A stretch of DNA of 45,076 bases from a virus (IMGVR_UViG_3300036856_000040:1-45076); one strand, 5' to 3'; shown: positions 8,098-45,076, counted from the first letter of the stretch. Notes: generated by a model not told the origin, from the sequence alone. A program made the numbers and translations.

Positions 8098-8110
8098 CGA
8101 GGAGATGACG

Positions 8111-11241: not shown

Positions 11242-11265
11242 CCAGACCGAACGGAGGCGCGGCAG

Positions 11266-15128: not shown

Positions 15129-15138
15129 GGATGGTGAC

Positions 15139-23099: not shown

Positions 23100-23194
23100 G
23101 ACGTGTGCACCTGGCTGAGCAGGGCCAGGACGATGACGACGAGCGCGACGAAAATGATCACGGTCGCGATGGTCTTGTTGCTGATGCGTCTCAT
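23096..23194 (-). CDS. 32-aa single-pass membrane peptide (antisense moron)
   Basis: MRRISNKTIATVIIFVALVVIVLALLSQVHTS*; GAGGAG SD. Confidence 0.65.
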   Translation of the reverse strand: MRRISNKTIATVIIFVALVVIVLALLSQVHTS

Positions 23195-23232
23195 GGTTCC
23201 CCGCTCCTCGCCGATTCCCTAAGGATTTCTCT

Positions 23233-23616
23233 TTGATAATCACCTATGACGGCCAGGATTACCCGTTCGACCTGGACGAGGTGACGGTCCAGCAGGCCCT
23301 GAAGATCGAGAAGTACATGGGCTGCTCGTTCGCCGAGTGGGGCAAGAAGCTGCAGGCGGGGGAGGACATGGCGGCCCGGCAGGTGCTGGGCTGGCTGATC
23401 CTGCACCCGGCCGGCGACGTGCCGATCGAGGACACCGACTTCAAGCTGGTCGCGCTCGGCAACGCCCTGGACGCGGCGTTCACCGCGGCGGCGGCGAAGG
23501 AGAAGGCCGATGAAGTGCCGGGCCCTACCGCAGCCGCCACGTTGAACGGCCACACGTCACCGGCGGTTTCGTCCCCCGTGAACTTGCTGCAATCCTCGGG
23601 CGAGATCTCGCGCTGA
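23233..23616 (+). CDS. Tail assembly chaperone (gpG-like)
   Basis: Between tail tube and TMP; TTG start after AAGGA. Confidence 0.75.
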   Translation: MIITYDGQDYPFDLDEVTVQQALKIEKYMGCSFAEWGKKLQAGEDMAARQVLGWLILHPAGDVPIEDTDFKLVALGNALDAAFTAAAAKEKADEVPGPTAAATLNGHTSPAVSSPVNLLQSSGEISR

Positions 23617-23759
23617 CCCGCGCCCGGTCCCTGTTCGACCTGGCCCACTACTGCTCGGTGCCACCCCAGCAGGTCAACTCGCTGGCCCTGGTGGATTTCG
23701 CGCATCTGCTGTCCGGCATCAGGAGCCACAGGGCCGCCCGCGCGGTCCCCGAACCGTAG
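23520..23759 (+). CDS. -1 frameshift extension of the tail assembly chaperone (gpGT-like)
   Basis: G GGC CCT heptamer at 23520-23526; -1 frame open to TAG 23757-23759 encoding LFDLAHYCSVPPQQVNSLALVDF. Confidence 0.7.
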   Translation, partial: GPYRSRHVERPHVTGGFVPRELAAILGRDLALTRARSLFDLAHYCSVPPQQVNSLALVDFAHLLSGIRSHRAARAVPEP

Positions 23760-23769
23760 GGGAGGCGCT

Positions 23770-24261
23770 GTGTCGATCGACGGGCCGGGACGGGCTGAGC
23801 TGCGGGACCTGGCGGCGCGGCTGAAGGACGCGGGTGAGGAGGGCAAGGGGTTCCGCAAGGCGCTGCGGAAGCAGCTCGTCGAGGCCGCGAAGCCGATCGC
23901 TAAGAAGATCACCGATCCGGCGCACCTGAACGCCTACCTGCCGGACCACTACGTGACGGTGCTGGCCCCGGACCTTTCCGTCAGTGTGCAGCAGATCCTC
24001 TCGGGCAGTCCTCGCGTGTCGATCAGCGCCCGGACGCGGCGTGAGCGCCGCCGCAAGGTGGCTCACCTCGACCTGGGGCTCATCAACCACCCGGTGTTCG
24101 CCCGGGGGCCGCGCAGTCACTGGACCTGGAAGAACAACCAGACGGGCGGCATGCGGCCGGGGTTCTTCACCGACCCGTGCCGGGACGCCGCACCGGACAT
24201 CCGGGAGCACGTGCTGAAGGCGATCACAGAGACAGCCGCGGAGGTCGCCGGGCATGGCTGA
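23770..24261 (+). CDS. Tail-associated protein (HK97 gp10-like)
   Basis: GGAGG SD; LRDLAARLK, INHPVF, RPGFF. Confidence 0.6.
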   Translation: MSIDGPGRAELRDLAARLKDAGEEGKGFRKALRKQLVEAAKPIAKKITDPAHLNAYLPDHYVTVLAPDLSVSVQQILSGSPRVSISARTRRERRRKVAHLDLGLINHPVFARGPRSHWTWKNNQTGGMRPGFFTDPCRDAAPDIREHVLKAITETAAEVAGHG

Positions 24262-26986
24262 CGAGACCCTCCGGTTTGACATCATCGGGAACGACCGGGG
24301 TTCCCGTGCGTTCACGACCGTCGGGGCGGCCGCCAAGGACATGGGTGGCAAGATGGACATCGCCGCCAAGCAGGCGGTGGTCCTGGATGAGGCCTTGCAG
24401 CGGCAGATGAAAGCCCAGCGGGCCAGCATCGATGCTTCCATCTCGCTGGCTAAGGCTGAGGACATTCTCACCGAGGCCGAGCACGGGCTCCGGGACGGGG
24501 CGCTTGAGGCTGAACTGGCGCTGAAGAAGGAAACCGAGGCCAAGAAGCAGTCCGGCCGGGCCGCCGACGAGGCCGCGGCGAAGAACAAGGGCCTCAAGGA
24601 CAGCATGAAGGGGCTGAGCCTCAACCCCGGGATCGCTGGCCCGGCGCTGCTGGCCGCCCCGATCGCCGCCAGTGTCGGCGGGGTGGCCGCGGGCGCCGCG
24701 ATCGGCGCGGGCGGCGCGGCCCTGGCCGGCGGGGCCGCGCTGGCCGCGTACGGGGCGGTGGCCAAGTCGGTGCTGTCCCAGGCGGCCACGGCCACGACAG
24801 CGGTCCAGAAGGCTCAGGACGCCTACAACGTGGCGATCGAGCACGGCACCAAGCAGGCCACGGCGTACAAGGCCGAGCAGCTCGCGATCATGAAGGCGTA
24901 TGCGGGCATGTCGCCCGCCCAGATCCAGCTGTCGAAGCAGCTCGGCGGTATCTCTGACCAGTGGGGCAAGTTCAAGACGTCGGTGACGCCGCTGATCGCC
25001 GGGTCGCTGCAGCCGTGGCTGAAGGGCATCACGACCGGGATCGGTGAGCTGGGCTCGATCCTGAAGCCGATGGCCCCGGTGGTGCACGAGCTGGGCACCC
25101 AGTTCGCGACGCTGATGGATTCGTCGACGATGCGGTCGTTCATGGCCTGGATCGGCACGACCGGCGCGGCGGCGACGAAGGCGGGCGGGAACGCCCTGAT
25201 CGATTTCCTGACCGGGGTGACGTTCCTGCTGCCCCAGTTCACGCCGCTGATTCACGGGGCGTCGGGTGAGCTGACCAAGTGGGCGGACGCGTTCGTGAAG
25301 TGGTCGGCGAGCAAGAAGGCCAGCGACGATATCACCGCGTTCCTGGGCTGGTTCAAGACGAACAGCCCGGCGGTCACGGGGCTGCTGAAGAACATCGGCG
25401 GGGCGCTGAAGGCCCTGTCGCCCGGGCTGGGCCCGGCGTCGGTGACCGAGCTGAACATCGTGTCGGGGTTTTTCGCGGCGATCGCGAAGCTGCCGCCGGG
25501 CCTGGCCAAGCCGCTGGTCGATGTGGCGGCGACGCTGCTGATCCTGAAGAAGGTCGGCGTCTTCGACGTCGGGATGAAGCTCGTCAGCAAGGACGGCGCG
25601 TTCGCTAAGACCAAGCTGGGCGAGGCGGTGCTCGGCGGGGCCACGTCCCTGATCCTGCCGGTCACGCTGACCGTCGCGGCGCTCACCGGCCTGTCCCAGA
25701 TCAAGGACAAGAAGGGCGGCGGCAGCCTGCTGGCCCCGAAGGCTGCCGACCTCGGCTACAACGGCAGCTGGGCGAAAGACATCACCCACTGGTGGGATGT
25801 TGTCGCCAACGACATCGGCGGCGTTCAGGTCCGGATACAGAATTCGGTTGTCGGCGCGGCTGATCACCTGCGGCACACGCTTTCCGGCGTGTATGACGGC
25901 ATCCGCCACGACACCTCCAGCATCTGGGACCTGACGTGGAACAACACCGTCGGCCGCCTGAACCGGGGCTCATCTGACACGCTGAAGATCCTGGGCGGCT
26001 GGCAGCACAACGTGTCCCACTGGTTCGACGTGACCCGCCACGACATCGCCGCGTCCTGGGACACGACCTGGAACAACACGGTCGGCCGGGTCTCTCGCGG
26101 CGTCGGCGACGTCGTGCACTGGATAGCGACGCTGCCGGGCCGGGCCGGGTCGGCGCTGGGCTCGCTCGGCTCAAGACTGTGGAGTATCGGCGACACCGCC
26201 CTGACCGACCTGTGGAAGGGCATGAAGGCCGGGGCGGGCGGCATCGGCAACTGGCTGTCCGGCTTCGCCAAGGGCGTCGTCGGGGTCTTCAAGAAGATCT
26301 GGGGCTGGTTCTCCCCGTCCCGGGTCATGTACGAGGGCGGCAAGTCCCTCATGGACGGCCTGGCCAACGGCATCAAGGACCACGCCCACAAAGCCCAGAG
26401 CGCCGCCAGCGGGGTCGCGAACGGGGTCGCGGCCAAGTCCGGTTCGGCGGCTGCGGCGCAGCGGTACGCCTCCTCGCTGCTGGCGCAGTACGGCTGGTCC
26501 CAGGCGCAGATGGGCCCGCTGATCGCCCTGTGGAACCAGGAGTCCGGCTGGAACGCCAACGCCGTCAACCCGTCCTCGGGTGCCTACGGCATCCCCCAGG
26601 CGCTCGGCAAGGGCCACCCGTTCAACCTCGGCGACTACGCCAACCAGGTGATCTGGGGCCTGAACTACATCCGGGGCCGGTATGGCTCCCCGGCCGCCGC
26701 CGAGGCGCACGAGCGGGCCTTCAACTGGTACGCCTCCGGCACCACGTCAGCGGCGCCCGGCTGGGCGTGGGTCGGTGAGCGCGGCCCGGAGCTGATGCAC
26801 TTCCGCGGCGGCGAGCAGGTGGTGCCCGCGAACCGGGCCCGGGCTGGCGGGGACGTCTACAACATCAACGTCACCGTGCCGCCGACCGTGAACCCGCGTG
26901 AGGCCGGGCGGCAGATCGCCGAACTGGTCACCACCCACATCAAGAGCGGCGGCCGCCTCTACCCGCAGGGCGTGACCCCCCGGTGA
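24254..26986 (+). CDS. Tape measure protein with C-terminal lytic transglycosylase domain
   Basis: 910 aa helical, Trp-periodic; SPSRV; LWNQESGWN.NAVNPSSGAYGIPQAL...WGLNYIRGRYG; VGERGPEL. Confidence 0.9.
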   Translation: MADETLRFDIIGNDRGSRAFTTVGAAAKDMGGKMDIAAKQAVVLDEALQRQMKAQRASIDASISLAKAEDILTEAEHGLRDGALEAELALKKETEAKKQSGRAADEAAAKNKGLKDSMKGLSLNPGIAGPALLAAPIAASVGGVAAGAAIGAGGAALAGGAALAAYGAVAKSVLSQAATATTAVQKAQDAYNVAIEHGTKQATAYKAEQLAIMKAYAGMSPAQIQLSKQLGGISDQWGKFKTSVTPLIAGSLQPWLKGITTGIGELGSILKPMAPVVHELGTQFATLMDSSTMRSFMAWIGTTGAAATKAGGNALIDFLTGVTFLLPQFTPLIHGASGELTKWADAFVKWSASKKASDDITAFLGWFKTNSPAVTGLLKNIGGALKALSPGLGPASVTELNIVSGFFAAIAKLPPGLAKPLVDVAATLLILKKVGVFDVGMKLVSKDGAFAKTKLGEAVLGGATSLILPVTLTVAALTGLSQIKDKKGGGSLLAPKAADLGYNGSWAKDITHWWDVVANDIGGVQVRIQNSVVGAADHLRHTLSGVYDGIRHDTSSIWDLTWNNTVGRLNRGSSDTLKILGGWQHNVSHWFDVTRHDIAASWDTTWNNTVGRVSRGVGDVVHWIATLPGRAGSALGSLGSRLWSIGDTALTDLWKGMKAGAGGIGNWLSGFAKGVVGVFKKIWGWFSPSRVMYEGGKSLMDGLANGIKDHAHKAQSAASGVANGVAAKSGSAAAAQRYASSLLAQYGWSQAQMGPLIALWNQESGWNANAVNPSSGAYGIPQALGKGHPFNLGDYANQVIWGLNYIRGRYGSPAAAEAHERAFNWYASGTTSAAPGWAWVGERGPELMHFRGGEQVVPANRARAGGDVYNINVTVPPTVNPREAGRQIAELVTTHIKSGGRLYPQGVTPR

Positions 26987-28314
26987 CGTCGCTGCCGGTC
27001 CTGCCGCAGATCATCGTCGAGGCGGGTGTTGAGCCGGACTCGCCGACCGGGCAGGCCAGCACGGTCCTGCGCCTCTCCGACGCCGTGAACGGGAAGCTGG
27101 ACACGGCCACGCTGGGCACGTCGATCGGCTGGGCGGACATCTCCCAGTGGGTGATCGGCTTCACGGTCACCCGGCCGTCGTCGCGGCTGATGGGGCCGCT
27201 GTGGAACTACCAGGCGGGCACGGTCTCGATCGTCCTGGACAACTCCGACGGCCGCTTCGACCCGGACAACCTGTCCGGGCCGTACGTGGTCGCCGGGGTG
27301 ACCCAGCTGACCGCGATGGTCCCGATCCGGGTCCGGGCCAACTTCGCGGGGCTGGCCTACCCGCTGTACCTGGGGTTCGCCGACGGGTGGCTGCCCGCCG
27401 CCGTCACCTACGAAGGCGGCTACACCGAGCTCACCTTGCCCGCCACGGATGCGTTCAAGGTGCTCGCCGGGGTCACGCTGGCCACGACCGCGGCCGAGGG
27501 GATCGGCGCGACCACCGGTGAGCGGGTCAGTGACATCCTGACCCGGTCCGGCTGGTACACCTCCGGCGAATGGCTCGACGTCGGGGCCGGGAACTCCACG
27601 CTGCAGGGCACCACGCTCGGCGCTGACGCCCTGTCCCTGATGCAGATCGCCGTGGACTCCGAGATCGGCCAGCTGTACGTGAGCGGCTCCGGCGCGGTCA
27701 CGTTCCGGGGGCGGCAGTCGATCCTCACCGACACCCGCTCAGCCAGCGTCCAGGCCGTGTTCGGGGACCTGCCCGGCACGAGTCACTCGGCGGGCACCGA
27801 GCTGGCGTGCGAGGAGATCGACCGGGCCAGCGACGACACGACGATCGCCAACGACGTCCAGGCCACCTGTGCCGGCGGGACGCTGCAGGAAGTGCAGGAC
27901 ACCGCGTCGATCATCAAATACCTGTTCCCCCGCACGTACGCCCGCACGGACCTGATCCTGCTGGCCGACTCGGACGCCCTGAACTGGGCGCAGTGGGTGC
28001 TGTACATCGCCAAGAGCGGCGAGGACCGGTTCGAGTCGCTGTCGATCGACCCGGCCGCCGACCCGCAGAATCTGTGGCCGCAGGTGCTGGGCCGGGAGAT
28101 CGGCGACCGGATCCAGGTGTGGCACCGGCCCGCGTCGGTGACCACGCCGATCAGCAAGGACTGTTTCATCACCGGGATCACCCACGCCTGGGACTCGGTG
28201 GCGTCGTCGTGGCTGACGACGTGGACGCTGCAGGACGCCTCCAAATACGGCAGCTTCCTGACCTTGGACAACACGTCGCTGGGCCGCCTCAACTTCAACG
28301 CGCTCACCTACTGA
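26983..28314 (+). CDS. Minor tail/baseplate hub protein
   Basis: AGTVSIVLDNSDGRFDP, EIGDRI, ITGITH; follows TMP. Confidence 0.8.
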   Translation: MTSLPVLPQIIVEAGVEPDSPTGQASTVLRLSDAVNGKLDTATLGTSIGWADISQWVIGFTVTRPSSRLMGPLWNYQAGTVSIVLDNSDGRFDPDNLSGPYVVAGVTQLTAMVPIRVRANFAGLAYPLYLGFADGWLPAAVTYEGGYTELTLPATDAFKVLAGVTLATTAAEGIGATTGERVSDILTRSGWYTSGEWLDVGAGNSTLQGTTLGADALSLMQIAVDSEIGQLYVSGSGAVTFRGRQSILTDTRSASVQAVFGDLPGTSHSAGTELACEEIDRASDDTTIANDVQATCAGGTLQEVQDTASIIKYLFPRTYARTDLILLADSDALNWAQWVLYIAKSGEDRFESLSIDPAADPQNLWPQVLGREIGDRIQVWHRPASVTTPISKDCFITGITHAWDSVASSWLTTWTLQDASKYGSFLTLDNTSLGRLNFNALTY

Positions 28315-31107: not shown

Positions 31108-31450
31108 GGAGCGCGGCCCGCAGGGCGAGACCGGGGCGACCGGGGCGACCGGCGAGGCGGGGATGCCCCGCAATGTCCGCCGCGCCATCGTCTGGCTGTT
31201 CGCCCTGTCCGTGGTCCTCGCGGCCACCAGCATCCTGTTCACCGTCGGTTTCATCGGCTGGCAGAACTCTCATCAGCGCGCCACCCAGGCCAAGGCCGCG
31301 ATCCCGGTGTGCATGGCGCTGCAGCACCTCGCCCGGGTCAAGGGCACCCACGGCGACTCCGGGGCCACCTATGGCGCGAACCTGCAGCAGGCGTTCCAGC
31401 AGGTGTACGCGGCCACCGGATGCCCGATGATCATGAAGGGAAAGCCATGA
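31100..31450 (+). CDS. Membrane protein with short N-terminal Gly-X-Y repeat
   Basis: GPQGETGATGATGEAG, one TM, two Cys. Confidence 0.65.
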   Translation: MSEERGPQGETGATGATGEAGMPRNVRRAIVWLFALSVVLAATSILFTVGFIGWQNSHQRATQAKAAIPVCMALQHLARVKGTHGDSGATYGANLQQAFQQVYAATGCPMIMKGKP

Positions 31451-32205
31451 CCCTGACCATGGCCGATTCGATCACCCCCACCAACCTGCCCGCCGGATAT
31501 GACGCCTACCTCGGCTACGTCGATGGCCACTGGCCCACGGCGGCCGCCCTGAAGCGGCGGTTCCCCGGCTCCCGCATCCTCACCCTGACCGTGCTCGGCG
31601 GCAACGCCGTGGCCGACGGCTGCGACCGGGAACCGGGCGACCTGAGCCCGGCGACCGCGGCGGCCTGGGCGCACGGCAGGCTCGCCGCTGGCGCGGTGCT
31701 GCCGGTCGTGTACGCGAGCGCGTCGGCGATGGGCGGCGTCCTGGAGGCGCTGATCGCCCGGGGGATAGCCCGGGCCGAGGTGCGCCTGCTGTCCGCCCAC
31801 TACGGCGGCGGCCGTCACATCTGCGGGCCCGCCACCTGCCGCCTGACCAGCGTGGCCATGGACGGCACCCAGTGGACCGATTCCGCGCCCGGCGTCGGCG
31901 GGACCCGCATCGACGCCTCGCTGCTGTCCGCTGACTTCTTCGGCGCCCACGCCCCCACGCCCCCCACCTCATCCTCGTGGCAGGAGACGATCATGAACGC
32001 ACTCCCCGAAGTGAAGCAGCCCAACTACGGCCCGGCCGTCCGGACCGTCCAGGGCCTGCTGCTGGCCCGGGGCTGCAGCCTCACCCTCGACGGCGTGTTC
32101 GGGCCGGCCACGGAGACGACGCTGAAGCGGTTCCAGGGCAGCGCACATCTGAGCGCTGACGGGGTCGTGGGGCCGCTCACGTACGCGGCGCTGCTGGACG
32201 TGTAG
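31447..32205 (+). CDS. Endolysin: GH25-like catalytic domain plus peptidoglycan-binding domain
   Basis: GYVDG, CDREPGD, PVVYAS, SAHY, GTQWTD; C-terminal GPAVRTVQGLL..DGVFGPAT...FQ...ADGVVGPLT. Confidence 0.8.
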   Translation: MTLTMADSITPTNLPAGYDAYLGYVDGHWPTAAALKRRFPGSRILTLTVLGGNAVADGCDREPGDLSPATAAAWAHGRLAAGAVLPVVYASASAMGGVLEALIARGIARAEVRLLSAHYGGGRHICGPATCRLTSVAMDGTQWTDSAPGVGGTRIDASLLSADFFGAHAPTPPTSSSWQETIMNALPEVKQPNYGPAVRTVQGLLLARGCSLTLDGVFGPATETTLKRFQGSAHLSADGVVGPLTYAALLDV

Positions 32206-32862: not shown

Positions 32863-32920
32863 GCGGCCAGCCGGGCACCCGGCCTCCATGGCTGGGCCGG
32901 GTGCCCTACTGGCCGGTCAG

Positions 32921-33040
32921 CTACTTGCCCTTGTTCTGGATGAGGTCGCCGCCGACGACGTTGCCGACCGCGATCTGGTTGCCGCTCTCGTCTTCGCCGT
33001 CGGCCTGCTCGACCGGCTTGCCGTTGATCGTGACCTTCAT
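32921..33040 (-). CDS. 39-aa microprotein
   Basis: MKVTINGKPVEQADGEDESGNQIAVGNVVGGDLIQNKGK*; high GC3. Confidence 0.6.
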   Translation of the reverse strand: MKVTINGKPVEQADGEDESGNQIAVGNVVGGDLIQNKGK

Positions 33041-33047
33041 GGCCTGG

Positions 33048-33200
33048 CTACTTCTTCTTCTTGGCGTCGTTCTTCTGGTCGAGCATGAAGTTGACGCGGT
33101 TGAGGCCGTCCTTGGCGTCCTTCTCAGCGGCCCGCTTGAACGCCCACTTCTCGATCTCGCGCTTCGCGGAGTCAGAGATCTGGTTGTCCTTCTTGCCCAT
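33048..33200 (-). CDS. 50-aa Lys-rich microprotein
   Basis: AAAGGACAGGACC-ATG; MGKKDNQISDSAKREIEKW...KKKK*. Confidence 0.7.
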   Translation of the reverse strand: MGKKDNQISDSAKREIEKWAFKRAAEKDAKDGLNRVNFMLDQKNDAKKKK

Positions 33201-33281
33201 GGTCCTGTCCTTTCGCCCGGGGCCAGCCCTGTGCTGACTGCCCGATCGGCCGCACGTGCGAGACGCGCGGCCTCGGGGCCG

Positions 33282-33449
33282 TCACCCCCCGAAGATGATC
33301 CGGTCGGCCGCGGCCTCCTCTTCGGGGCTGCAGTTGCGGTAGGCGGACCGCAGCAGGTTGGCCGTCTTCTTCGCCTGTTCGGGGTCCTGCTGGCCGGTCT
33401 GCTTGGCCAGCTTGACCACTTTGTCCACCTGGGATTTCCGGAGTGCCAT
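33282..33449 (-). CDS. 55-aa microprotein
   Basis: GAAGGACAGGACG-ATG; MALRKSQVDKVVKLAK...DRIIFGG*. Confidence 0.7.
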   Translation of the reverse strand: MALRKSQVDKVVKLAKQTGQQDPEQAKKTANLLRSAYRNCSPEEEAAADRIIFGG

Positions 33450-33468
33450 CGTCCTGTCCTTCCGTTGG

Positions 33469-33684
33469 TTACTTCCTGGTAATGAACGCCCGCCACTGCG
33501 CCGGGCTGAACGCCAGCACCGGCCCAGCCGGGTCCTTGCTGTCCCGCACCGCCACCACGGCCGGGCCGTTCCCGGCCTCAACGCAGTTGCTCTGGAACGA
33601 GCTGGCCGAGGCCTTCCGCCAGCCGGCCACCTCCACACAGTTGCCGTTCGAAAAGCTGTACGAGGACTTACGCCACATGGTCAT
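33469..33684 (-). CDS. DUF397 (BldB/Scr2-like) protein
   Basis: WRKSSYS..GNCVEVA (duplicated) and VAVRDSKDPAGPVLAFSPAQWRAF. Confidence 0.9.
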   Translation of the reverse strand: MTMWRKSSYSFSNGNCVEVAGWRKASASSFQSNCVEAGNGPAVVAVRDSKDPAGPVLAFSPAQWRAFITRK

Positions 33685-34052
33685 CACCTCCTCTCGCTGC
33701 CACGCTGGAGCGCGGCCAACTGCTCTGCCTGCTCGGCCGGAGTGCCGTGCAGGTGGATGTGGAGCTCGCGCGGGACCTCGATCGCCTGGACCGGCCGGCC
33801 GGTTAGCGCCGGGCGCTCCGGCCCGGCCAGGTACATCGGCCGGCCCCCGGTGGCCACCTGGGCGCCGTTGCGGGCCATCCACACCAGCACGCCGACCGCC
33901 ACCACCACGGCCAGGCCGACCATCAGGCCGACGATCAGCTCATAGGCAAGCACCAGCCACACCGCCAGCGCCGCCCCGCCCAGCGTGCCGAGCGTGGCCA
34001 GCACCTTGCCGTCGCCGCAGCCAGGGCAGTGCAGGCCCGGGCATCCGCTCAT
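33684..34052 (-). CDS. Membrane protein (Cys-rich N-terminus, 2 TM, ELHIHLHG)
   Basis: ATGA and TGATG coupling; hydrophobic segments. Confidence 0.7.
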   Translation of the reverse strand: MSGCPGLHCPGCGDGKVLATLGTLGGAALAVWLVLAYELIVGLMVGLAVVVAVGVLVWMARNGAQVATGGRPMYLAGPERPALTGRPVQAIEVPRELHIHLHGTPAEQAEQLAALQRGSERR

Positions 34053-34291
34053 CGTTGCCTCCTCTTGGCCCGCTCCTGGAGCGAGACCGCGCCGCGGTGG
34101 ATCGTCTTCGCGCCGAGACGGCGCCGGTTGCCAGCACCCCGGCAGCGTCGGCACTGACCCCACCGGCTGCTGTTGCTGCCCGGGTTCCGGCCGGTGCCCT
34201 CGCAGCGGCGGCACTTCGCGAACGGCCACAGGTACAGCGACCCGGCCCACCCGCCTACGGCCAGCAGAGCCAGCCCGATGGTCTCGATCAT
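34049..34291 (-). CDS. Membrane-anchored DnaJ-type zinc-finger protein
   Basis: TM then WPFAKCRRCEGTG...CRRCRGAG.RRRLG. Confidence 0.75.
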   Translation of the reverse strand: MIETIGLALLAVGGWAGSLYLWPFAKCRRCEGTGRNPGSNSSRWGQCRRCRGAGNRRRLGAKTIHRGAVSLQERAKRRQR

Positions 34292-34298
34292 GTCCGCC

Positions 34299-34778
34299 TC
34301 ACACGTGCTCCAGCGGGCACGCCTCGATGCCCTCTTTGAACGCCGCGCAGGCCGCGCGGCGGCAGTCCTCGTCGTTGCATGACCGGTAGTCGTGCTGCGG
34401 GGCGCGCTGTTTCGGCGCGGGCCGGGCCTTCTGGCGGCGCTGGGCCGCGGCAGCCTTCCGCCGGTCGGCCGCCGCCTTGCGCCGGGCCTTGGCCTTCTCC
34501 CGCTGCCGGGCCCGGGTCGCCGCCTTCCGCTCGCGTTCCCGCTGCCGCTTCTCGGCCGCCTTGGCCCGGCGGGCCGCGGCCGCCTTCTGCCGCTCGGCCG
34601 CGCGCTGGCGCTTCCTGAAGTCGGTCTTGACCGTGCACGTGTGGGTCAGCGGGTTGGTGTACCGCTTGCCGCACGTGCCGCACCGGCGGCTCGTCGCCCG
34701 CTGGGCCCGCCGCCGGACGCGGGTCTTCAGCTTCGGCTTCTTCCTGGCCGGCTTGGACAGGTCGATCAGCTTCGCCAC
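34299..34778 (-). CDS. Highly basic zinc-binding protein
   Basis: GGAGGTG SD; CGTC...HTC, Arg/Lys/Ala helix, HDYRSC...C...C. Confidence 0.7.
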   Translation of the reverse strand: MAKLIDLSKPARKKPKLKTRVRRRAQRATSRRCGTCGKRYTNPLTHTCTVKTDFRKRQRAAERQKAAAARRAKAAEKRQRERERKAATRARQREKAKARRKAAADRRKAAAAQRRQKARPAPKQRAPQHDYRSCNDEDCRRAACAAFKEGIEACPLEHV

Positions 34779-34791
34779 GGAGTCACCTCCG

Positions 34792-34913
34792 GGTCGCGGC
34801 AGACGATTCCAGGTCGCGGCTGCGCGACCGGCGCTGACCTGCACAAATGGTGTTTGCCGCGACCTGCCGCGACCTGAGCCACCGCGCTGACCTGCGAGGT
34901 CGCGGGTCGCGGC
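34792..34913. repeat. clt-like array of 8-10-bp repeats (putative TraB recognition sequences)
   Basis: GGTCGCGG at 34792, 34812, 34898, 34905; CCGCGACC at 34857, 34867; GCGCTGACCTGC at 34831, 34884; non-coding, directly 3' of traB. Confidence 0.7.
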
Positions 34914-34926
34914 CGAATCGGCGCGC

Positions 34927-37011
34927 TCACTGCTCTGCTGCCTTCAGGACGTCCGCGCGGCGGCACCCCTTCACGGCGCGACCGAACGCCTTCACGTCCA
35001 CGCTGGGCACGCCCAGCGCCCGGCACTCGGCCGACACGGCGCCCGGGTTCGTCTCGGCCCAGCGCTCCGGAATCTGCGCCTGGAGCCGCCCGGCCAGCTG
35101 CGGCCACTGGAGCCCAGCGTCATCGCCGAACACCCGCAGCACGTCAGCCAGGACGTCCCGGTCGTCCTGCTCGGCCTCCTGGCCCAGCGCCATCCCGGCC
35201 AGCGTCCCGGCCTTGCTCCGCAGCGCCCGGGCCGCGGTCAGGATCTTCTCCGCGTCCCGGCCGTCGGCCAGGTAGGTGCGCACCGTCGGGGACTTGTCCG
35301 TGGCCCCGCGCAGGATGCCGACACCCTTGTACTCCGGCAGCAGCGTCGAGGTGTCCAGGCCCTCGCTGTACGCTCCGGCACCCAGGCACAGCTCCGACAC
35401 CTGCCACGACGAGGTGCGCAGGCCGAACTTGATCTGGTGGTTGTCGCGGAAGCTGGTGAACTGCTGGCCCACCTGCCCCGACCCGACACCCGATGGCCGC
35501 TGCGTTGAGTCGAGCAGGATGATGCCGACGCTCGGCCCGATCTTCACCAGGTGGGTGAGCAGCGAGGCGACCGTCTTGCTGGCGTCGCCCAGGTCGTAGA
35601 CCTCCTGAAACTCGTCCATGACCAGCAGTCGGACCGGCATCCGGTACCGGGGGTCGCGGGCGATCTCCCTGGTCAGCTTCCCTTCGGGGCAGATCGTGGA
35701 CGGCAGCTCGGACAGCCGGTGGTTGCGGTCCTGGACGTCGGCCTTGATGGCCTCCAGCGTGTTGCCGAAGATCTCCAGCGGGTCACCGTCGCGGGTCCGG
35801 GTCAGGCCGAAGCCGCACGAGTCCGCGACCAGCGCGAACTTCCGCCAGTCCGGGGAGCCCTTGAAGTCGAACACGTCCAGCTTCACGTGCGGGTCCAGGG
35901 CCGCGTACAGGGCCAGCTGGCGGGCCGAGAACGTCTTGCCCTGCCGGGGCAGCGCCGAGACCAGGATCGACTGCCACAGCAGCGGCACGGTGACCAGCTG
36001 GCCGCGCTCGTCCAGGCCGAACGGCGCGGGCTTCCAGATATCGGTCGCGGTGCACTTCAGCAGCGGTGTCCGGCCGACCGGCACGGCCAGCGGGTCACGG
36101 TCGGCGACCCACAGGGTGTGGCGCCGGTAGCTGGTCGGGTCGCGATGCAGGAACACCTGGGACAGCGAGACGTCCAGGCCGGACGCCAGCGCGGGCTTGG
36201 CCTTCGTCGCGTCGTCGAGGCCCTTGCCGTAGGGCAGGTCGATCGCCACCCGGGAGCCCTCGCCGTCCCGGCTCATCGGAGAGCCGAACGTGACCTGCTG
36301 GCCATCCTTCTCCGGATCGCCCAGGCCAGCGGCGTAGTAGGCCCGCAGGACCACGTCGGCGCTGATCACCCGGAACCGCGGCGTGATCATCGACGGGGTG
36401 ATGATCGGCCGGTCCGCGGGCCGGCCGGCCCGGGCCAGCATCACGACGGCCACCACTGCGGCGGCGATGGCGATCAGCAGCTTGTCCGGGGAGTACCGCA
36501 GGAACACGCCCACCAGCACGCACAGAACGACCAGGGCGATCGTGGCGATGGCCCGCCGCTCGTCCCGCTGCTTCTTCGCCGCGGTGGCCAGGGCCCGGTA
36601 CTCGCGGCTGTCACCGTTGATGACGGCCTGGGACCGCAGCGGGGTGTGGTCAGCCACCGACAGCCACGCGGCCAGGTTCCCGGCCGTGACGACCAGGCCA
36701 TACGCGGCCCAGCCGAGCGTCTTGGCCAGGTACCAGGGTGCCCGCAGCCCGTGGAAGGCGGCGTGGTGGCCGGCCGTGGTGGCCAGCCGGGCCGCTTCGG
36801 CCCGGGCCACGGCCGCCGACTGGAGCGGGGCCGGGATGATCGAGCGGCGCTCACCGTCGAACGGCAGGCGGGCGACCGCCTCACCGTCGTGCACAGGCGC
36901 GACGTCGGCATCCGGCGCCTGGTCGATCGCCACCTCGTAGCTCGTGTCGAACTTCTCGGGCGCGTCCTGGTCGGACTTGTCGGGGAACGGGACGATCTCG
37001 GCGTCGGCCAT
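34927..37011 (-). CDS. traB: TraB/TraSA-like FtsK/SpoIIIE DNA translocase
   Basis: N-terminal TMs, ALPRQGKT (Walker A), DFKG, LLVMDEFQE (Walker B), STQRPS, C-terminal wHTH-like DVLADVLRVF...RALGVPS. Confidence 0.85.
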   Translation of the reverse strand: MADAEIVPFPDKSDQDAPEKFDTSYEVAIDQAPDADVAPVHDGEAVARLPFDGERRSIIPAPLQSAAVARAEAARLATTAGHHAAFHGLRAPWYLAKTLGWAAYGLVVTAGNLAAWLSVADHTPLRSQAVINGDSREYRALATAAKKQRDERRAIATIALVVLCVLVGVFLRYSPDKLLIAIAAAVVAVVMLARAGRPADRPIITPSMITPRFRVISADVVLRAYYAAGLGDPEKDGQQVTFGSPMSRDGEGSRVAIDLPYGKGLDDATKAKPALASGLDVSLSQVFLHRDPTSYRRHTLWVADRDPLAVPVGRTPLLKCTATDIWKPAPFGLDERGQLVTVPLLWQSILVSALPRQGKTFSARQLALYAALDPHVKLDVFDFKGSPDWRKFALVADSCGFGLTRTRDGDPLEIFGNTLEAIKADVQDRNHRLSELPSTICPEGKLTREIARDPRYRMPVRLLVMDEFQEVYDLGDASKTVASLLTHLVKIGPSVGIILLDSTQRPSGVGSGQVGQQFTSFRDNHQIKFGLRTSSWQVSELCLGAGAYSEGLDTSTLLPEYKGVGILRGATDKSPTVRTYLADGRDAEKILTAARALRSKAGTLAGMALGQEAEQDDRDVLADVLRVFGDDAGLQWPQLAGRLQAQIPERWAETNPGAVSAECRALGVPSVDVKAFGRAVKGCRRADVLKAAEQ

Positions 37012-37211
37012 CAGGCCCACCTCCAGTCAGCGGGGCGAAGCGGGTAGCGGAGAACATGCCGGACGGCCAGCCACAGCCCCGCCGTAGCGGCCGCGGCCAG
37101 GACGATGACGGCGAGCAGCGGGACATTGAAGGTCAGGCCGGCCACGGTGGCCCGGGCCGGGACCGCGGCGACGGCCAGGACAAAGGCGAGCAGCTTGAGC
37201 AGCGCGGTCAC
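37011..37211 (-). CDS. Small 2-TM membrane protein (Spd-like)
   Basis: Hydrophobic; TGATG coupling to traB. Confidence 0.7.
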   Translation of the reverse strand: MTALLKLLAFVLAVAAVPARATVAGLTFNVPLLAVIVLAAAATAGLWLAVRHVLRYPLRPADWRWA

Positions 37212-37369
37212 CGGCCCGGCCCCCTCTGGTCGCCGCGGGTCACCTTGCTGTCCTGCGGCGGGCGGCGGCCGCTCATCGCGGCAGCGTTGTGGTGGCGGAC
37301 CTTGCGCAGCTCCGACAGCCGGCCGCTGAGCGGCGCACCGGCGGTCGCGTTCAGGATGCGGTCACTCAT
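37208..37369 (-). CDS. 53-aa basic hypothetical protein
   Basis: ATGA and GTGA overlaps; MSDRILNATAGAPLSGRLSELRKVRHHN... Confidence 0.55.
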   Translation of the reverse strand: MSDRILNATAGAPLSGRLSELRKVRHHNAAAMSGRRPPQDSKVTRGDQRGPGR

Positions 37370-38094
37370 GACGCACCGTCCGTACCTGGCACCAGCGACC
37401 GCAGATAGGCCCTTACCTCAGTGGCCTTGTCCTGGCCGACGTGGAGTCGCGTCTTGATCGCCTCGATGCCGGGTGTCCGCCCGGCCAGCAGGTCGGCGGC
37501 GAACTCCGTACTCGCCTGCCGGTGCAGCTCGGGTAGCCCTACCTCGTCACTGTCCCCGGTGCTCAGCCAGTCGAGCAGCTTGTCGACGGGCGCGTCGGGC
37601 TCCGGCCGGTCCGGCGCGGCCGGGCTGGGCTCAGGTAGGGCCGCGTCCTCGCCGGGCCCGGGCCGGTCGCCGTCAGGTAGGGCGCGCAGCAGGTGCGTCA
37701 GCGCGGCCCCGAATCCGAGGGTGACGACCGGCAGGCAGGCGACCAGCACGACCACCGGCCACGGGGCCCGGGTACGGCCCGCCGCGGTCAGCAGGTGGAA
37801 GATGATCTGCCCGAGCATGCCGAGCACGAGGGCGCCGATAGCGGACCGGCGGGCGAACGTGCGGGCCCGGGCCGGGGTGCCGCCGTGCAGCCACGCGCCG
37901 AGCGCGAACGCCCCGTACGCCTCGACACCGACCGGCAGCGTGATCGCCGTGTTGAGATGCCAGGCGACGATGCCGGGCAGCGGCTGGACGAGGCCGAAGC
38001 CGCACAGCTCGCCCAGGCCGACCCAGCCGGACCAGATGGCCACGGCCGCGGGGGAGGCGATGAAGAACAGCGGCCAGCGGCGGGGGGCGTTCAC
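37366..38094 (-). CDS. SpdB/DUF2637-like 4-TM spread protein with C-terminal HTH-like region
   Basis: WSGWVGLG, LPVGVEAY, VACLPVVTLG, then PGIEAIKTRLHVGQDKA. Confidence 0.7.
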   Translation of the reverse strand: MNAPRRWPLFFIASPAAVAIWSGWVGLGELCGFGLVQPLPGIVAWHLNTAITLPVGVEAYGAFALGAWLHGGTPARARTFARRSAIGALVLGMLGQIIFHLLTAAGRTRAPWPVVVLVACLPVVTLGFGAALTHLLRALPDGDRPGPGEDAALPEPSPAAPDRPEPDAPVDKLLDWLSTGDSDEVGLPELHRQASTEFAADLLAGRTPGIEAIKTRLHVGQDKATEVRAYLRSLVPGTDGAS

Positions 38095-38318
38095 GACGCC
38101 CCGCCGGCCATCTCGTCAATGAGGTCGAGCAGATGCCGGACGGTGGCCCGGGCTTCGCCGAACGCGACCGCGAACACGAACGCATCGCCCTTGGGGAAGT
38201 CCTGCGGCTGGGCCAGCTGGTGGGCGTCGGAGTTCGCGACCTTGCGGGCCCGCTCCAGCGTCATCCGCTGGGTGTGGGTCAGTCTGGACGCGCCGGGCGC
38301 GTCGTCTTTAGAGTTCAC
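38091..38318 (-). CDS. Hypothetical protein
   Basis: GGAAGAGG SD; GTGA overlap. Confidence 0.7.
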   Translation of the reverse strand: MNSKDDAPGASRLTHTQRMTLERARKVANSDAHQLAQPQDFPKGDAFVFAVAFGEARATVRHLLDLIDEMAGGAS

Positions 38319-38354
38319 GGTGGGCCTCTTCCTGCTAGCTCAGGTTGGGGTCAA

Positions 38355-38387
38355 GGGCCGCGGGCGTGTTCCACCACCCCGCGGCCC
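38355..38387 (-). promoter_or_regulatory. GC hairpin in the leader of the transfer operon
   Basis: GGGCCGCGGG...CCCGCGGCCC 10-bp stem with GTG-GTGGAA-CAC apex on the minus strand. Confidence 0.55.
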
Positions 38388-38389
38388 GC

Positions 38390-38611
38390 CTATTCAGTTG
38401 GTAAGACGTTCAGTTCCCGGTCCAGGTCATCGAGCGTTCGAGCAGTCACATAGTGCTGCGCTCCGCTGGTGACCCGGGTAGCGCACCAGCCGGGGGCGCC
38501 GTCGTTCCGGCCGATCTCCCACCGGTCGCCATGCCGGGCGCGGACCTCCGCCAGGCCGATCGCCAGTGCGTCATCCATGAGCGCCCGGGCGTCAGCCGGC
38601 GTGATGTCCAC
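38390..38611 (-). CDS. Hypothetical protein, first gene of the transfer operon
   Basis: Leaderless-type promoter; HGDRWEI...WCATR...VTARTLDDL. Confidence 0.7.
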   Translation of the reverse strand: MDITPADARALMDDALAIGLAEVRARHGDRWEIGRNDGAPGWCATRVTSGAQHYVTARTLDDLDRELNVLPTE

Positions 38612-38694
38612 GTGACCAGCGTACGACTATAGCTGACTATGGCAAGGGTTACCTTGCGTAGTCACGCCATGGGCGGGTGCGCTAACTTGCCCCG
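38612..38694. promoter_or_regulatory. Divergent promoters with palindromic operator
   Basis: Minus TTGCCA-16-TACGCT-6-GTG; plus TAACTT-6-ATG; TGACTA-TG-GCAAGG-GTTA-CCTTGC-G-TAGTCA (38634-38664); extra GACTAT at 38625. Confidence 0.65.
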
Positions 38695-38934
38695 ATGATC
38701 ATCGATCCCGACTCACCAGAACACCCATACCTGCAGCTAGCGAGCTATCTGAGACAACGGATCAGGGACGGCGACCTGACCTCGAAACTTCCGTCCCTGA
38801 CCGCCCTCACCGAGGAGACCGGGCTCGCCCTGAACACCGTTCAGCGCGCCGTCCGGGTCCTGAAAGACGAGGGCCTGGTCTACACGGTGCCCGGCCGTGG
38901 CGTGTTCGTGAGCAAGGACCCCCGCCGTCCCTAG
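38695..38934 (+). CDS. GntR-family repressor (KorSA/KorA-like, wHTH only)
   Basis: PYLQLASYLRQRIRDG...LPS..AL.EETGLALNTVQRAVRVLKDEGLVYTVPGRGVFV. Confidence 0.9.
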   Translation: MIIDPDSPEHPYLQLASYLRQRIRDGDLTSKLPSLTALTEETGLALNTVQRAVRVLKDEGLVYTVPGRGVFVSKDPRRP

Positions 38935-38950
38935 CGGCGGGGGTCCTTGC
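38912..38950. terminator. 16-bp perfect hairpin between convergent gntR and int
   Basis: GCAAGGACCCCCGCCG-TCCCTAG-CGGCGGGGGTCCTTGC. Confidence 0.7.
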
Positions 38951-39025: not shown

Positions 39026-39922
39026 TTACCCGCTCTTCTTGCGGCCCCGGACCGGCCGCAGCGCCGTCGGCACCGGCAGCGCCCGGACCGTCTCGACGGC
39101 CTCCACGTTGTCGAACGCGGCGTATCCGGCGGTGGTGTGCGGGTAGGCGTGGCCCATCAGCTCCTGGACGACGCGAAGGTCGTGCTTGGCCCGGTAGGTG
39201 TTCGTCCCGAACCAGTGCCTCAGCTTGTGCAGCGTGGAGACCGACCCGCACTCGTGCAGGTGCTCGTTGGCGAGCTGGGACACCAGCCACGGCTTGTTCG
39301 GGCCCGGGTGCCCGTCGTGGCGGCGGAACACATACCCCATGTGCCGGCCGGGCAGCGCGGCCAGCTCGGCCGCGGCGAACTCGTGCAGCGGGATCGTCCG
39401 CTCCCGGATGCCCTTCGTGGCGTCAGCGGCGACCAGCAGCACCGGCGGCTCGGCGTTGGCGAGCACGTTCTCCCACCGCAGCAAGGCGATCTCCTTGGCC
39501 CGCAGGCCGCACCAGGCGGCCAGGACGAGCCAGGGCCGTATGCGGGCGTCGGCGGTGGCGACCGCGTACGCCAGGTCCTCGTCGCTGATCGGGCGGGGCA
39601 GGCGCCGCCCGGTCTTCGGCACCGGGACCCGGGCGGTCGGGTCGTCTTCCCGCTGCCCCTCCTGCATCATCCAGCGGTAGAAACTGCGGATGTGCGAGAC
39701 GTACCCGGCGATCGTGTCGTTGGTCACGGTCAGGGACAGGCGCCACCGGATCAGATCATCGTCGGTGGCGTCCCTTAAAGGACCGGGGGTACTCCGCGCC
39801 AGCAGCCGCAGCGCGCGCGCCCGGTTGTAGATGGTGTTGTCGGCCAGGCCGAGCAGGTGCATGTACCTGAGGTGCGCAGCGATGAGAGCAGCATCCTGCG
39901 CCGAGAAGATCGGCATAGACAT
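39026..39922 (-). CDS. int: Tyrosine integrase lacking an arm-binding domain
   Basis: GLRAKEI (R), TKG (K), HKLRH, MGHA, TTAGY; about 298 aa. Confidence 0.9.
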   Translation of the reverse strand: MSMPIFSAQDAALIAAHLRYMHLLGLADNTIYNRARALRLLARSTPGPLRDATDDDLIRWRLSLTVTNDTIAGYVSHIRSFYRWMMQEGQREDDPTARVPVPKTGRRLPRPISDEDLAYAVATADARIRPWLVLAAWCGLRAKEIALLRWENVLANAEPPVLLVAADATKGIRERTIPLHEFAAAELAALPGRHMGYVFRRHDGHPGPNKPWLVSQLANEHLHECGSVSTLHKLRHWFGTNTYRAKHDLRVVQELMGHAYPHTTAGYAAFDNVEAVETVRALPVPTALRPVRGRKKSG

Positions 39923-40043: not shown

Positions 40044-40403
40044 CTATGCCACGTGATGGAGGGTTCTACTCAAGTGAAGCCCTGAACTCAAACCTGATAT
40101 GAACCCCCCGCCACGCTGGGCTTTTGAGGTTTCACGGCTGATCTTCGAGCCCCCCCGGCCCGTAGGGTCCGTATCGGCCAGCCAGGCGAACGGTACCCCC
40201 GTCCGCAATGCCCACATCTTGAGGTATGCGGCCTTCGGCGCGGCACCGCGGTCGTTGAGCCAGCGACCCACTGTAGACCGGCTGACGCCCATCTCGTCGG
40301 CCATCTCCTCGACGCCGATTCCGGCGTGCGAGAGCGAGCGCTGAAGCCGCCAGCCGAGCGTCCACTCCGGGATCTCGCCCATCGTCTCAGGCAGTTCTGT
40401 CAT
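40044..40403 (-). CDS. Immunity repressor (XRE HTH, BPs/Brujita-like)
   Basis: IPEWTLGWRLQRSL...MADEMGVSRSTVGRW...WALRTGVPFAWL; low-GC C-terminal tail. Confidence 0.85.
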   Translation of the reverse strand: MTELPETMGEIPEWTLGWRLQRSLSHAGIGVEEMADEMGVSRSTVGRWLNDRGAAPKAAYLKMWALRTGVPFAWLADTDPTGRGGSKISRETSKAQRGGGFISGLSSGLHLSRTLHHVA

Positions 40404-40757: not shown

Positions 40758-40764
40758 AACGAAC

Positions 40765-44911: not shown

Positions 44912-45076
44912 CGCCTACGAGATGACCGGGGCCGTGCCGCTGCCCAACGGGGTGGCCGAGGTCGGCCACCAGGGCGCGGACGTCGTCCTGCTGCTGCACG
45001 GCATGCGCCGCGCCGACTTCGGCCCGGACGTGCGCACCGAGTTCATGAAGCTGTTCATGGAGGCCGAGGGGCGCGC
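44904..45076 (+). CDS. 5' part of the junction-spanning hypothetical protein (ends at 164)
   Basis: ATG at 44904 overlaps the RecT-like stop; frame continues across the repeat. Confidence 0.7.
   Translation, partial: MADAYEMTGAVPLPNGVAEVGHQGADVVLLLHGMRRADFGPDVRTEFMKLFMEAEGR
44950..45076 (+). repeat. Terminal direct repeat copy 2
   Basis: Identical to 1-127. Confidence 0.95.

What the first reader, a model, noticed from the sequence alone, without database searches (positions are those of the whole stretch)
32921..38950. A tailed temperate phage carrying an intact AICE-type conjugation module: candidate conjugative phage
Seen: a coupled leftward operon (leader gene, SpdB/DUF2637-like 4-TM protein, small TM protein, TraB-like FtsK ATPase with intact Walker A/B and STQRP, clt-like repeats, zinc-finger and membrane genes) divergent from a GntR repressor with a palindromic operator. 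It sits between lysis genes and integrase of an otherwise complete phage. No rolling-circle Rep, second integrase or AICE Xis is visible, so it is not simply an inserted AICE. Established: kor-tra-spd-clt suffices for dsDNA transfer and intramycelial spread of pSAM2/pSVH1-type elements. Inference: the excised phage circle can move hypha to hypha, or across septa, without virions or receptors. This would be a dual virion/conjugation lifestyle that I do not know to be described.
Basis: partly seen in the sequence, partly recalled or inferred. Interest (0 to 1): 0.92.

Follow-up and report, generated by a model that had tools for sequence, protein, structure and literature searches.

The report
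Temperate phage with plasmid-type DNA pump
A complete tailed phage, likely of a soil actinomycete, carries an intact plasmid-type DNA pump gene beside repeats predicted to be its docking site, as do most of its complete relatives, so its genome likely also moves between hyphae without virus particles, a double life reported for two Streptomyces plasmid-phages but untested here.

Summary
The window is a circular 44,949-bp HK97-type temperate phage. Between lysin and integrase it carries a GntR repressor, a conserved operator, membrane genes, an intact 694-aa FtsK-fold TraB relative and a 148-nt repeat array (seven CGCGACC). No att-like borders, no AICE Rep, no sign of chimerism.

The same TraB family is the transfer motor of AICEs (40 of 55 genome loci lie beside AICE replication genes). 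It also sits in 8 other terminase-bearing phages. Among 33 capsid, portal or integrase relatives, 11 firmly and 4 probably carry such a pump (6 to 7 of 10 complete circles). In one near twin, pump and repeats are replaced together. Across 99 loci the repeat type tracks wing residues of the pump's winged helix, and this phage has the matching pair.

The lifestyle is not new: conjugative plasmid-phages pZL12 and pFP4 are published, and this scan noted the same idea on other DNA at least nine times. New here are the integrating backbone without partition genes, the prevalence, the cassette swap and the predicted recognition code. Transfer is untested and the host is only inferred.

The parts
38695..38934 (+). 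GntR-family repressor (Kor-like), 79 aa, DNA-binding domain only
   Evidence: Pfam PF00392 E 9e-12; small GntR family at 26 loci, mostly divergent upstream of the operon
38612..38694 (.). Divergent promoter region with palindromic operator candidate (core 38642-38657, outer arms 38634-38664)
   Evidence: Sequence; core conserved in G204 and outer arms changed on both sides with symmetry kept; the sigma-70 scan found no promoter here
38390..38611 (-). Leader gene, 73 aa, function unknown
   Evidence: Gene call; 44% identical gene in the same place in G204
38091..38318 (-). 75-aa gene coupled to the membrane gene
   Evidence: Gene call; short match in G002
37366..38094 (-). Membrane protein (3 clear hydrophobic segments plus a helical tail); remote DUF2637 relative, Spd-like by position
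   Evidence: 20-member family found upstream of the same TraB in AICEs and phages; hhalign 96.6% to DUF2637-positive alignment; no Pfam hit
37011..37211 (-). Small two-helix membrane protein, 66 aa, coupled to the pump gene
   Evidence: Hydropathy; like gene in the same place in G204
34927..37011 (-). TraB-like FtsK-fold ATPase, 694 aa: two membrane segments, motor, terminal winged helix
   Evidence: (phrog_1358 E 1e-17)
34779..34926 (.). clt-like docking array: 7 CGCGACC in both orientations plus two CTGACCTGC boxes
   Evidence: same position and same CTGACCTGC box behind pSVH1 traB; repeat type matches the pump's wing residues
34299..34778 (-). Basic 159-aa protein with Cys/His motifs
   Evidence: 55% to the gene in the same place in L001; families F15/F18/F79 directly behind the array
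34049..34291 (-). Membrane-anchored zinc-finger protein, 80 aa
   Evidence: Weak DnaJ_CXXCXGXG match; family present at 91 of 148 sequences, AICEs included
33684..34052 (-). Membrane protein, 122 aa
   Evidence: Hydropathy; like genes in G204 and G182
33469..33684 (-). DUF397 protein
   Evidence: Pfam PF04149 E 2e-26; same place in G204 and G182
32921..33449 (-). Three small charged ORFs (55, 50 and 39 aa) ending the operon; an inverted repeat at 32859-32920 follows
   Evidence: Gene calls; 50-aa ORF 55% identical in G204; inverted repeat I21
39026..39916 (-). Short tyrosine integrase of the phage
   Evidence: Pfam PF00589 E 2e-16; 68-69% to integrases of G204 and G182
40044..40403 (-). Phage immunity repressor; attP candidate near 40147-40171 inside its 3' end
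   Evidence: phrog_2328 E 4e-21; DNA conserved in three phages up to this point, then divergent; no attB found
31447..32205 (+). Endolysin, end of the late operon, converging on the transfer operon
   Evidence: PG_binding_1 E 1e-12; PHROG endolysin
6452..12666 (+). Terminase (two ORFs), portal, prohead protease, HK97-type capsid
   Evidence: PHROGs 9, 12, 80, 10; same split terminase in G001, G173, G179, G184, G185
22002..28314 (+). Tail genes including the tape measure protein
   Evidence: PHROGs 290, 305, 5313
44950..45076 (.). 127-nt repeat of positions 1-127: circular assembly, 44,949 bp

Best explanation
This temperate phage owns a TraB-type transfer module that likely pumps the excised, double-stranded phage circle across hyphal walls, into neighbouring compartments and into touching hyphae, without virions or a receptor. 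Shown: the genes, their linkage, the intact motor motifs, the repeat array, the recurrence in relatives and the replacement of pump and array as one cassette. Predicted: the FtsK fold and winged helix, and that wing residues D672, A679 and K681 read the CGCGACC repeats. Inferred from Streptomyces plasmids and AICEs: the GntR protein binds the palindrome and keeps the operon off. On derepression, the phage's own integrase excises a circle and its own initiator copies it, so no AICE Rep or Xis is needed. TraB then assembles as a membrane-anchored ring on the array and moves the circle, helped by the membrane proteins. In the new compartment the circle would integrate or enter lytic growth.
For: Motor motifs intact, Walker A kept in 22 of 22 phage-context or neighbouring copies examined, dN/dS 0.15-0.58 in 14 pairs. 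FtsK motor is the top fold match. Closest characterised proteins are plasmid TraB. The same family is flanked by AICE replication genes at 40 of 55 genome loci. A repeat array follows the gene at 81 of 113 loci against 102 of 2240 control windows. Repeat type tracks wing columns 679, 672 and 681 of 365 tested, also on distance-matched edges. All 33 GCGAC loci have D-[A/G]-K, none of the 41 GCTAC loci does, and this phage has D-A-K with GCGAC repeats. Eight other terminase-bearing phages carry the family. 11 firm and 4 probable pumps in 33 capsid, portal or integrase relatives. G204 keeps the whole operon but has a 26%-identical pump with another repeat. Precedent for conjugating phages: PMC4170104 and PMC3583192 passages.
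Against: No transfer or expression data. The host and its mycelial growth are inferred, not shown: best genome match is a Trebonia MAG at 66% and no close prophage was found in 151 genomes (best capsid match 42%). The protein misses the curated TraB and FtsK models, and its link to pSVH1 TraB is only 30% over 380 aa. The membrane partner is not SpdB2. Three of 10 complete relatives gave no hit in any of four searches, so the module is dispensable. The motif classes were set after viewing the data, the spanning-tree edges are not independent, and the strict independent-pair test reached only p 0.03-0.06 on 7 pairs. The published determinant for pSVH1 TraB is helix alpha3, not the wing (PMC3583192 passage). 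pZL12 needs two genes beside tra for transfer (same passage).
Confidence: 0.52

Rival explanations
1. The pump works only inside one mycelium. It moves the phage circle through cross-walls or into spores, enlarging an infection or keeping a carrier state, but it does not pass DNA between strains.
For: All comparative evidence fits equally well. PMC4170104 (passage) treats spreading as a stability function. A phage of the same layout was deposited as a circular 'plasmid' of a Pseudonocardia isolate (pPaSha2). The window has no partition genes among its called ORFs.
Against: In plasmids TraB with clt is what donor-to-recipient transfer requires (PMC3583192 and PMC4170104 passages). The same family is the only transfer candidate seen in the AICE loci.
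Confidence: 0.2
2. The block is AICE cargo picked up by recombination and carried along without use to the phage.
For: Phage and AICE labels alternate at least 7 times on the tree. In G004 and G005 the operon lies at the edge of the called provirus and may belong to a neighbouring element. The slot beside the integrase is where accessory genes often sit (own knowledge).
Against: No AICE Rep, second integrase or border repeats (0 direct 12-mers, 3.1 expected). GC3 of 0.91-0.96 equals that of core phage genes. dN/dS is under 1. Several pump lineages with little or no mutual BLAST similarity fill the same two slots in 11 to 15 of 33 relatives. Pump and array are replaced together.
Confidence: 0.11
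3. The operon acts as a kil-kor or exclusion system. Derepressed TraB or its membrane partners slow or kill cells, stabilising the prophage or blocking competing phages and AICEs, and phage DNA transfer is incidental.
For: kil-kor behaviour of tra genes under Kor control is described for AICEs and plasmids (PMC2440964 passage). The operon ends with DUF397 and small charged ORFs of unknown role.
Against: Killing does not need a docking array that matches the pump's DNA-reading surface, nor joint replacement of pump and array.
Confidence: 0.1
4. The ATPase serves the virion cycle, for DNA packaging or for pulling DNA in at infection.
For: FtsK/HerA-type ATPases package DNA in some other viruses (own knowledge). 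Weak fold matches to such proteins appear far down the viral list.
Against: The phage has terminase and portal. The gene is antiparallel to the late operon under its own repressor. The same family sits in AICE loci with no hit to the phage late-gene set (0 of 55). Some complete relatives lack it.
Confidence: 0.03
5. The contig is a chimera of a phage and an AICE.
For: The window is a metagenome assembly held by one run only. The table of pieces was cut and did not show one bridging the lysin side.
Against: Depth 11.6-19 in all 30 bins, and one 2795-nt piece spans leader gene to repressor without differences (probably the source sample). G204, assembled elsewhere, has the same gene order from holin to RecT.
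Confidence: 0.02

Closest known systems
Streptomyces plasmid-phages pZL12/ZL12 (GQ919031; Zhong et al. 2010, not read) and pFP4 (Chen et al. 2012, not read)
   Same: Tailed-phage genes plus an FtsK-like gene with membrane genes and a divergent GntR gene in one replicon. Reported to conjugate and, as a class, to make infective particles (passages of PMC3583192 and PMC4170104).
   Different: pZL12 is 90 kb with ParA/ParB and is described as extrachromosomal (PMC7157519 passage). This phage is 45 kb, has an integrase-repressor cassette and no partition genes. The two pumps are barely alike (E 0.35).
Transfer module of Prim-Pol/RepAM AICEs of Micromonospora, Actinoplanes, Nonomuraea, Actinomadura and kin (class defined in PMC3218068, passages)
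   Same: Same Tra family (about 50-57% identity), same order: GntR, membrane gene, tra, repeat array, zinc finger. Same repeat type where the wing residues agree.
   Different: No AICE replication gene, excisionase or integrase follows the zinc finger. The module is embedded in a full virion genome.
TraB-clt of Streptomyces plasmids pSVH1 and pSG5
   Same: FtsK motor at 30% over about 380 aa. Repeat array directly behind the gene with a shared CTGACCTGC box, and a divergent GntR repressor.
   Different: Different repeat, in mixed orientation. No SpdB2 homologue. Specificity here tracks the wing, not helix alpha3. No rolling-circle Rep.
Pseudonocardia alni 'plasmid' pPaSha2 (CP052773)
   Same: A 41.9-kb circle with terminase, portal, HK97 protease and capsid. 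DUF2637 and FtsK genes lie between integrase and holin, as here; pump 33% identical.
   Different: Deposited as a plasmid. The one paper on the strain that I searched does not name it (PMC8928166, term search). Its repeats follow the zinc-finger gene.
Cultured phages annotated with an FtsK-like translocase: Streptomyces phages Galactica, Hiyaa, Spocter, Keanu, Mischief19 and Thermobifida phage P1312
   Same: FtsK-like gene, behind membrane genes in Galactica and near an integrase in P1312.
   Different: Other pump lineages: this protein has no match among 50,697 phage records. No transfer test turned up in my searches.

Membership tests
TraB/Tra conjugative translocase of actinomycete plasmids and AICEs | FtsK/SpoIIIE-type motor with intact Walker A and B | tested here: met
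   Motifs; FtsK top fold match E 8e-12; phrog_1358. The Pfam and NCBIfam models are not hit.
TraB/Tra conjugative translocase of actinomycete plasmids and AICEs | N-terminal membrane anchor and C-terminal winged helix | tested here: met
   Segments 153-171 and 178-196; helix-helix-hairpin domain 620-693 at pLDDT mostly above 85
TraB/Tra conjugative translocase of actinomycete plasmids and AICEs | Closer to element-borne Tra than to chromosomal FtsK | tested here: met
   BLAST E 2e-26 and 2e-24 to pSG5 and pSVH1 TraB against E 1.5 to three chromosomal FtsK; FastTree support 97 for the group, with long-branch warnings and a root set by choice
TraB/Tra conjugative translocase of actinomycete plasmids and AICEs | Adjacent clt with multiple short repeats | tested here: met
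   7 CGCGACC in 148 nt; family-wide arrays
TraB/Tra conjugative translocase of actinomycete plasmids and AICEs | Specific binding of clt and transfer of double-stranded DNA | not testable with these tools
   Only covariation
kor-tra-spd module | Divergent GntR repressor with an inverted-repeat operator | tested here: met
   binding itself not testable
kor-tra-spd module | Spd membrane protein (SpdB2 or DUF2637) | tested here: inconclusive
   No SpdB2 likeness; no Pfam hit; remote profile link to DUF2637; same slot as DUF2637 genes
AICE (independent element inside the phage) | Own Rep (RepSA, RepAM or Prim-Pol) beside tra | tested here: not met
   None of the AICE replication families of the related loci occurs in the window; no Pfam hit among block genes. 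RepSA was not searched with its own model.
AICE (independent element inside the phage) | Own integrase and flanking att repeats | tested here: not met
   One integrase, shared with phage relatives; no border repeats above chance
AICE (whole element) | No virion genes | tested here: not met
   Full head and tail gene set
Plasmid-phage of pZL12 type | Virion genes and tra module in one replicon | tested here: met
Plasmid-phage of pZL12 type | Plasmid maintenance genes (ParA/ParB) | tested here: not met
   No partition hit among the 32 and 37 window proteins scanned; not every small ORF was scanned
Plasmid-phage of pZL12 type | Shown conjugal transfer and plaque formation | not testable with these tools
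   No culture data
Temperate HK97-type tailed phage | Terminase, portal, protease, capsid, tape measure, lysin, integrase, repressor in a closed genome | tested here: met

The most novel reading that the evidence does not exclude
Virion-free spread is a normal second route for a large share of temperate phages of filamentous actinomycetes. TraB serves as a phage 'movement protein', gained repeatedly from AICEs and swapped together with its docking array, and three wing residues form a simple code that keeps each pump on its own genome.
Probability: 0.4. Interest if true: 0.8.

Novelty: new variant of a known kind. Interest (0 to 1): 0.55.

Why it matters
If the pump works, a prophage could colonise a whole mycelium or a neighbouring strain without particles, bypassing receptors and surface defences. 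It would also blur the line between phages and AICEs in soil. Presence in 6 to 7 of 10 complete relatives suggests a common strategy rather than the rarity implied by two published plasmid-phages. The residue-to-repeat pattern gives a directly testable recognition code for TraB motors, and cultured look-alikes (pPaSha2, Galactica, P1312) make the question testable now.

Tried and rejected
No match to the pump in 50,697 GenBank phage records, nor for two relatives' pumps.

The mixture-model tree did not finish. FastTree on the motor region was used instead. It held 124 rows, after leaving out nine duplicate loci and copies under 540 aa.

A first covariation table mis-read some rows through a pattern error and was redone on alignment columns.

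attB search in five MAGs gave only chance-level matches and no tRNA. No tRNA in the window. The sigma-70 scan found no promoter at the operator and no terminator, so the promoter reading is by eye.

Host search: no close prophage in 151 genomes around the Trebonia MAG.

Sequencing runs: no RNA holder listed. Joints have short sides and were not used.

phrog_10 missed all six records tried; G003 and G008 were shown to be phages by direct scans.

The 365- and 391-aa genes behind the zinc finger in G004 and G005 stayed unidentified, so these two are counted as ambiguous.

The primary papers on pZL12, pFP4 and pSVH1 TraB were not read. No supplements were read. A search on Trebonia growth form gave two off-topic listings. 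No complex prediction was run.


Full report
What the window is. The first and last 127 bases are identical, so the record is a closed 44,949-bp genome. PHROG scans give terminase, portal, prohead protease, HK97-type capsid, adaptor, tail and tape-measure genes, a replication initiator, RecT and a repressor. Pfam adds endolysin, RecE-like nuclease and tyrosine integrase. The terminase is in two ORFs, but so it is in G001, G173, G179, G184 and G185, so this is a lineage trait and not decay. One public run holds 97% of the sampled words. Its depth is 11.6-19 in all 30 bins from tail to RecT, and one piece spans 38385-41179 without differences. This is probably the source sample and not independent support.

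The block. A codon-based gene caller trained on the window gives a coupled leftward operon from 38611 to 32921, facing a GntR gene. The 694-aa ATPase has intact Walker A, Walker B and STQRP motifs and two membrane segments. Its predicted structure (mean pLDDT 79) matches FtsK motors best (E 8e-12), then the conjugation protein TcpA. It misses Pfam FtsK_SpoIIIE and NCBIfam plasmid_TraB, and sequence search of the PDB reaches FtsK only at E 0.04. It matches 49 of 72,556 plasmid records, pSVH1 and pSG5 TraB among them, at E 2e-24 and 2e-26 against E 1.5 for three chromosomal FtsK proteins. The 242-aa membrane gene is not SpdB2 and has no Pfam hit in 17 of 17 family members scanned. Its profile aligns with a DUF2637-positive family over the last two helices and the tail (96.6%). 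The palindrome at 38642-38657 is conserved in G204, where the outer arms changed on both sides and stayed symmetric. No border repeats exceed chance, and GC3 matches the core genes.

Where the pump family lives. A protein search found 1097 relatives among 7994 candidates scored. In GTDB genomes (scan stopped at 33 of 64 parts) 55 loci were fetched. 40 of 55 lie beside Prim-Pol, RepAM/DUF3631 or helicase genes, mostly with an integrase, and 0 of 55 hit my set of phage late genes. These are AICEs by the criteria of PMC3218068 (passages). In IMG/VR, 12 loci were found and 8 of 12 records carry a terminase, from three different families. In G001, G002, G003, G007 and G009 the operon runs against the late genes just after lysis, as here. 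In G004 and G005 it lies at the edge of the called provirus and could belong to a neighbouring element. Of 80 metagenome loci kept from 180, most are short; 9 hit phage late genes. On a FastTree of the motor (124 rows) the window falls in a 50-row clade (support 99) of mostly metagenome sequences that also holds a Trebonia MAG locus. Phage and AICE labels change at least 7 times. A Streptosporangiales host is likely but not shown.

The docking array. Seven of the 35 CGCGACC sites of the genome fall in the 148-nt gap behind the pump gene. Across the family 81 of 113 such gaps hold five or more copies of one hexamer, against 102 of 2240 control windows, and 78 of 113 hold a TGACCTGC-type box. 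The gap behind pSVH1 traB holds the same box. The repeat differs between loci. Among 99 loci with a clear class, the columns that change when the repeat changes are 679, 672, 681 and 686 of 365 tested. On distance-matched edges 681 (21/34 against 0/16), 679 (33/34 against 9/16) and 672 (22/34 against 4/16) remain, while helix 3 and the residues nearest the array do not. This argues against simple linkage. These residues lie in the predicted wing hairpin. All 33 GCGAC loci have D-[A/G]-K there, none of 41 GCTAC loci does, and this phage has D-A-K. Caveats: classes were set after looking, edges are not independent, and a strict pair test on one residue gave p 0.03-0.06 on 7 pairs. For pSVH1 the reported determinant is helix alpha3 (PMC3583192 passage).

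How common among the phage's own kin. From capsid, portal and integrase scans I took the 33 records of 28 kb or more. One was already known to carry the pump, and some may be the same phage twice. Four profile searches and gene maps give 11 with a firm FtsK/TraB-like gene (G001, G173, G177, G178, G181, G185, G188, G198, G199, G203, G204). Four more have a long ATPase-like gene beside a DUF2637-type gene (G179, G182, G184, G195). Of 10 records with terminal repeats, 6 are firm, 1 probable and 3 gave no hit. The module uses two slots: lysis-to-integrase, and the stretch before the terminase. The pumps belong to several lineages with little or no mutual BLAST similarity. G204 shares integrase (68%), repressor, GntR, operator, membrane gene (74%), zinc finger and DUF397 with the window, but its pump is 26% identical to this family and is followed by another repeat. 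dN/dS is 0.15-0.58 in 14 pairs (simple method, high GC3). This pattern fits a function kept under selection better than dead cargo.

Mechanism. By analogy with plasmids and AICEs (PMC4170104, PMC3583192, PMC2440964; passages), GntR would repress the operon. The phage's own integrase and initiator would supply the circle, and TraB would load on the array and pump double-stranded DNA across a wall. Whether it reaches other strains or only other compartments cannot be told from sequence. I give 0.52 to transfer with spread, 0.2 to spread inside one mycelium only, 0.11 to cargo, 0.1 to kil-kor or exclusion, and 0.05 to virion role or artefact.

What is known. Earlier scan notes pointed to pZL12, and I checked it. 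The record holds phage structural genes, ParA/ParB, an FtsK-like gene, membrane genes and a GntR gene. PMC3583192 states that pZL12 transfer needs tra and two adjacent genes. PMC4170104 names plasmid-phages that conjugate and make infective particles, citing pFP4. PMC7157519 calls pZL12 an extrachromosomal singleton, and PMC4487206 reports the similar pSLE1. I saw passages only; the primary papers were not read. P. alni pPaSha2 is a phage circle with the same layout deposited as a plasmid, and six cultured phages of Streptomyces and Thermobifida carry FtsK-like genes of other lineages. Searches of the open-access library turned up no report of an integrating phage with such a module or of a wing-based code. 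Subscription journals and supplements were not covered. The integrase-repressor layout recalls integration-dependent immunity phages (recalled, not checked).

Verdict. The finding is real and well supported as anatomy, untested as function, and not categorically new: a new variant of a known kind. The scan has met the idea on other DNA at least nine times. Interest 0.55, carried by prevalence, cassette exchange and a testable recognition code.

Noticed in passing
window 41777-42007 (+): BldC-family regulator passing the NCBIfam cut-off (92 against 77 bits); like genes recur in the early region of several relatives. A phage copy of a host developmental regulator, or an excisionase.
   Followed up: partly
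window 32701-32862 (+): 53-aa gene ending in FNSAI that resembles FxSxx-COOH peptide precursors (Atlas scores 0.83-0.84, a lead only; no NCBIfam hit); 58% identical gene in G204. No maturation enzyme nearby.
   Followed up: partly
window 34834-34842 and 34887-34895; pSVH1 gap; 78 of 113 related gaps: A CTGACCTGC-type box recurs in the arrays whatever the repeat type and even behind unrelated pumps. It may be a site for a shared host or module factor; unexplained.
   Followed up: partly
window 40147-40171: DNA conserved in three phages inside the 3' end of the repressor gene, divergent behind it; attP candidate, no attB found.
   Followed up: partly
window 6452-8097: Large terminase encoded as two ORFs, as in at least five relatives.
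   Followed up: yes
L082 (14 kb): Same pump beside an HK97-type capsid gene, a primase and an integrase with no tail genes in view: possibly a phage satellite with a transfer module.
   Followed up: no
L086 / L141: Pump operon followed by lysis-type genes and then primase-polymerase and helicase genes, next to host genes: a small hybrid element of unclear kind.
   Followed up: no
L008 9905-13532 (G008, 103-kb tailed phage), L012, L100: Two FtsK-like genes in tandem with no gap behind the first; the second is closer to pSVH1/pSG5 TraB.
   Followed up: partly
CP052773.1 (pPaSha2): A record deposited as a plasmid of Pseudonocardia alni is a complete HK97-type phage circle with the same module layout, in a genetically tractable strain.
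   Followed up: partly
window 14481-19854 (+): A glycosyltransferase and a 1261-aa hydrolase/phosphodiesterase-like protein sit among the head-tail genes; similar genes in G001, G002 and G009.
   Followed up: no
window 30213-30722 (+): Permuted papain-like enzyme among the lysis genes, shared with L070, L086, L126 and L141.
   Followed up: no
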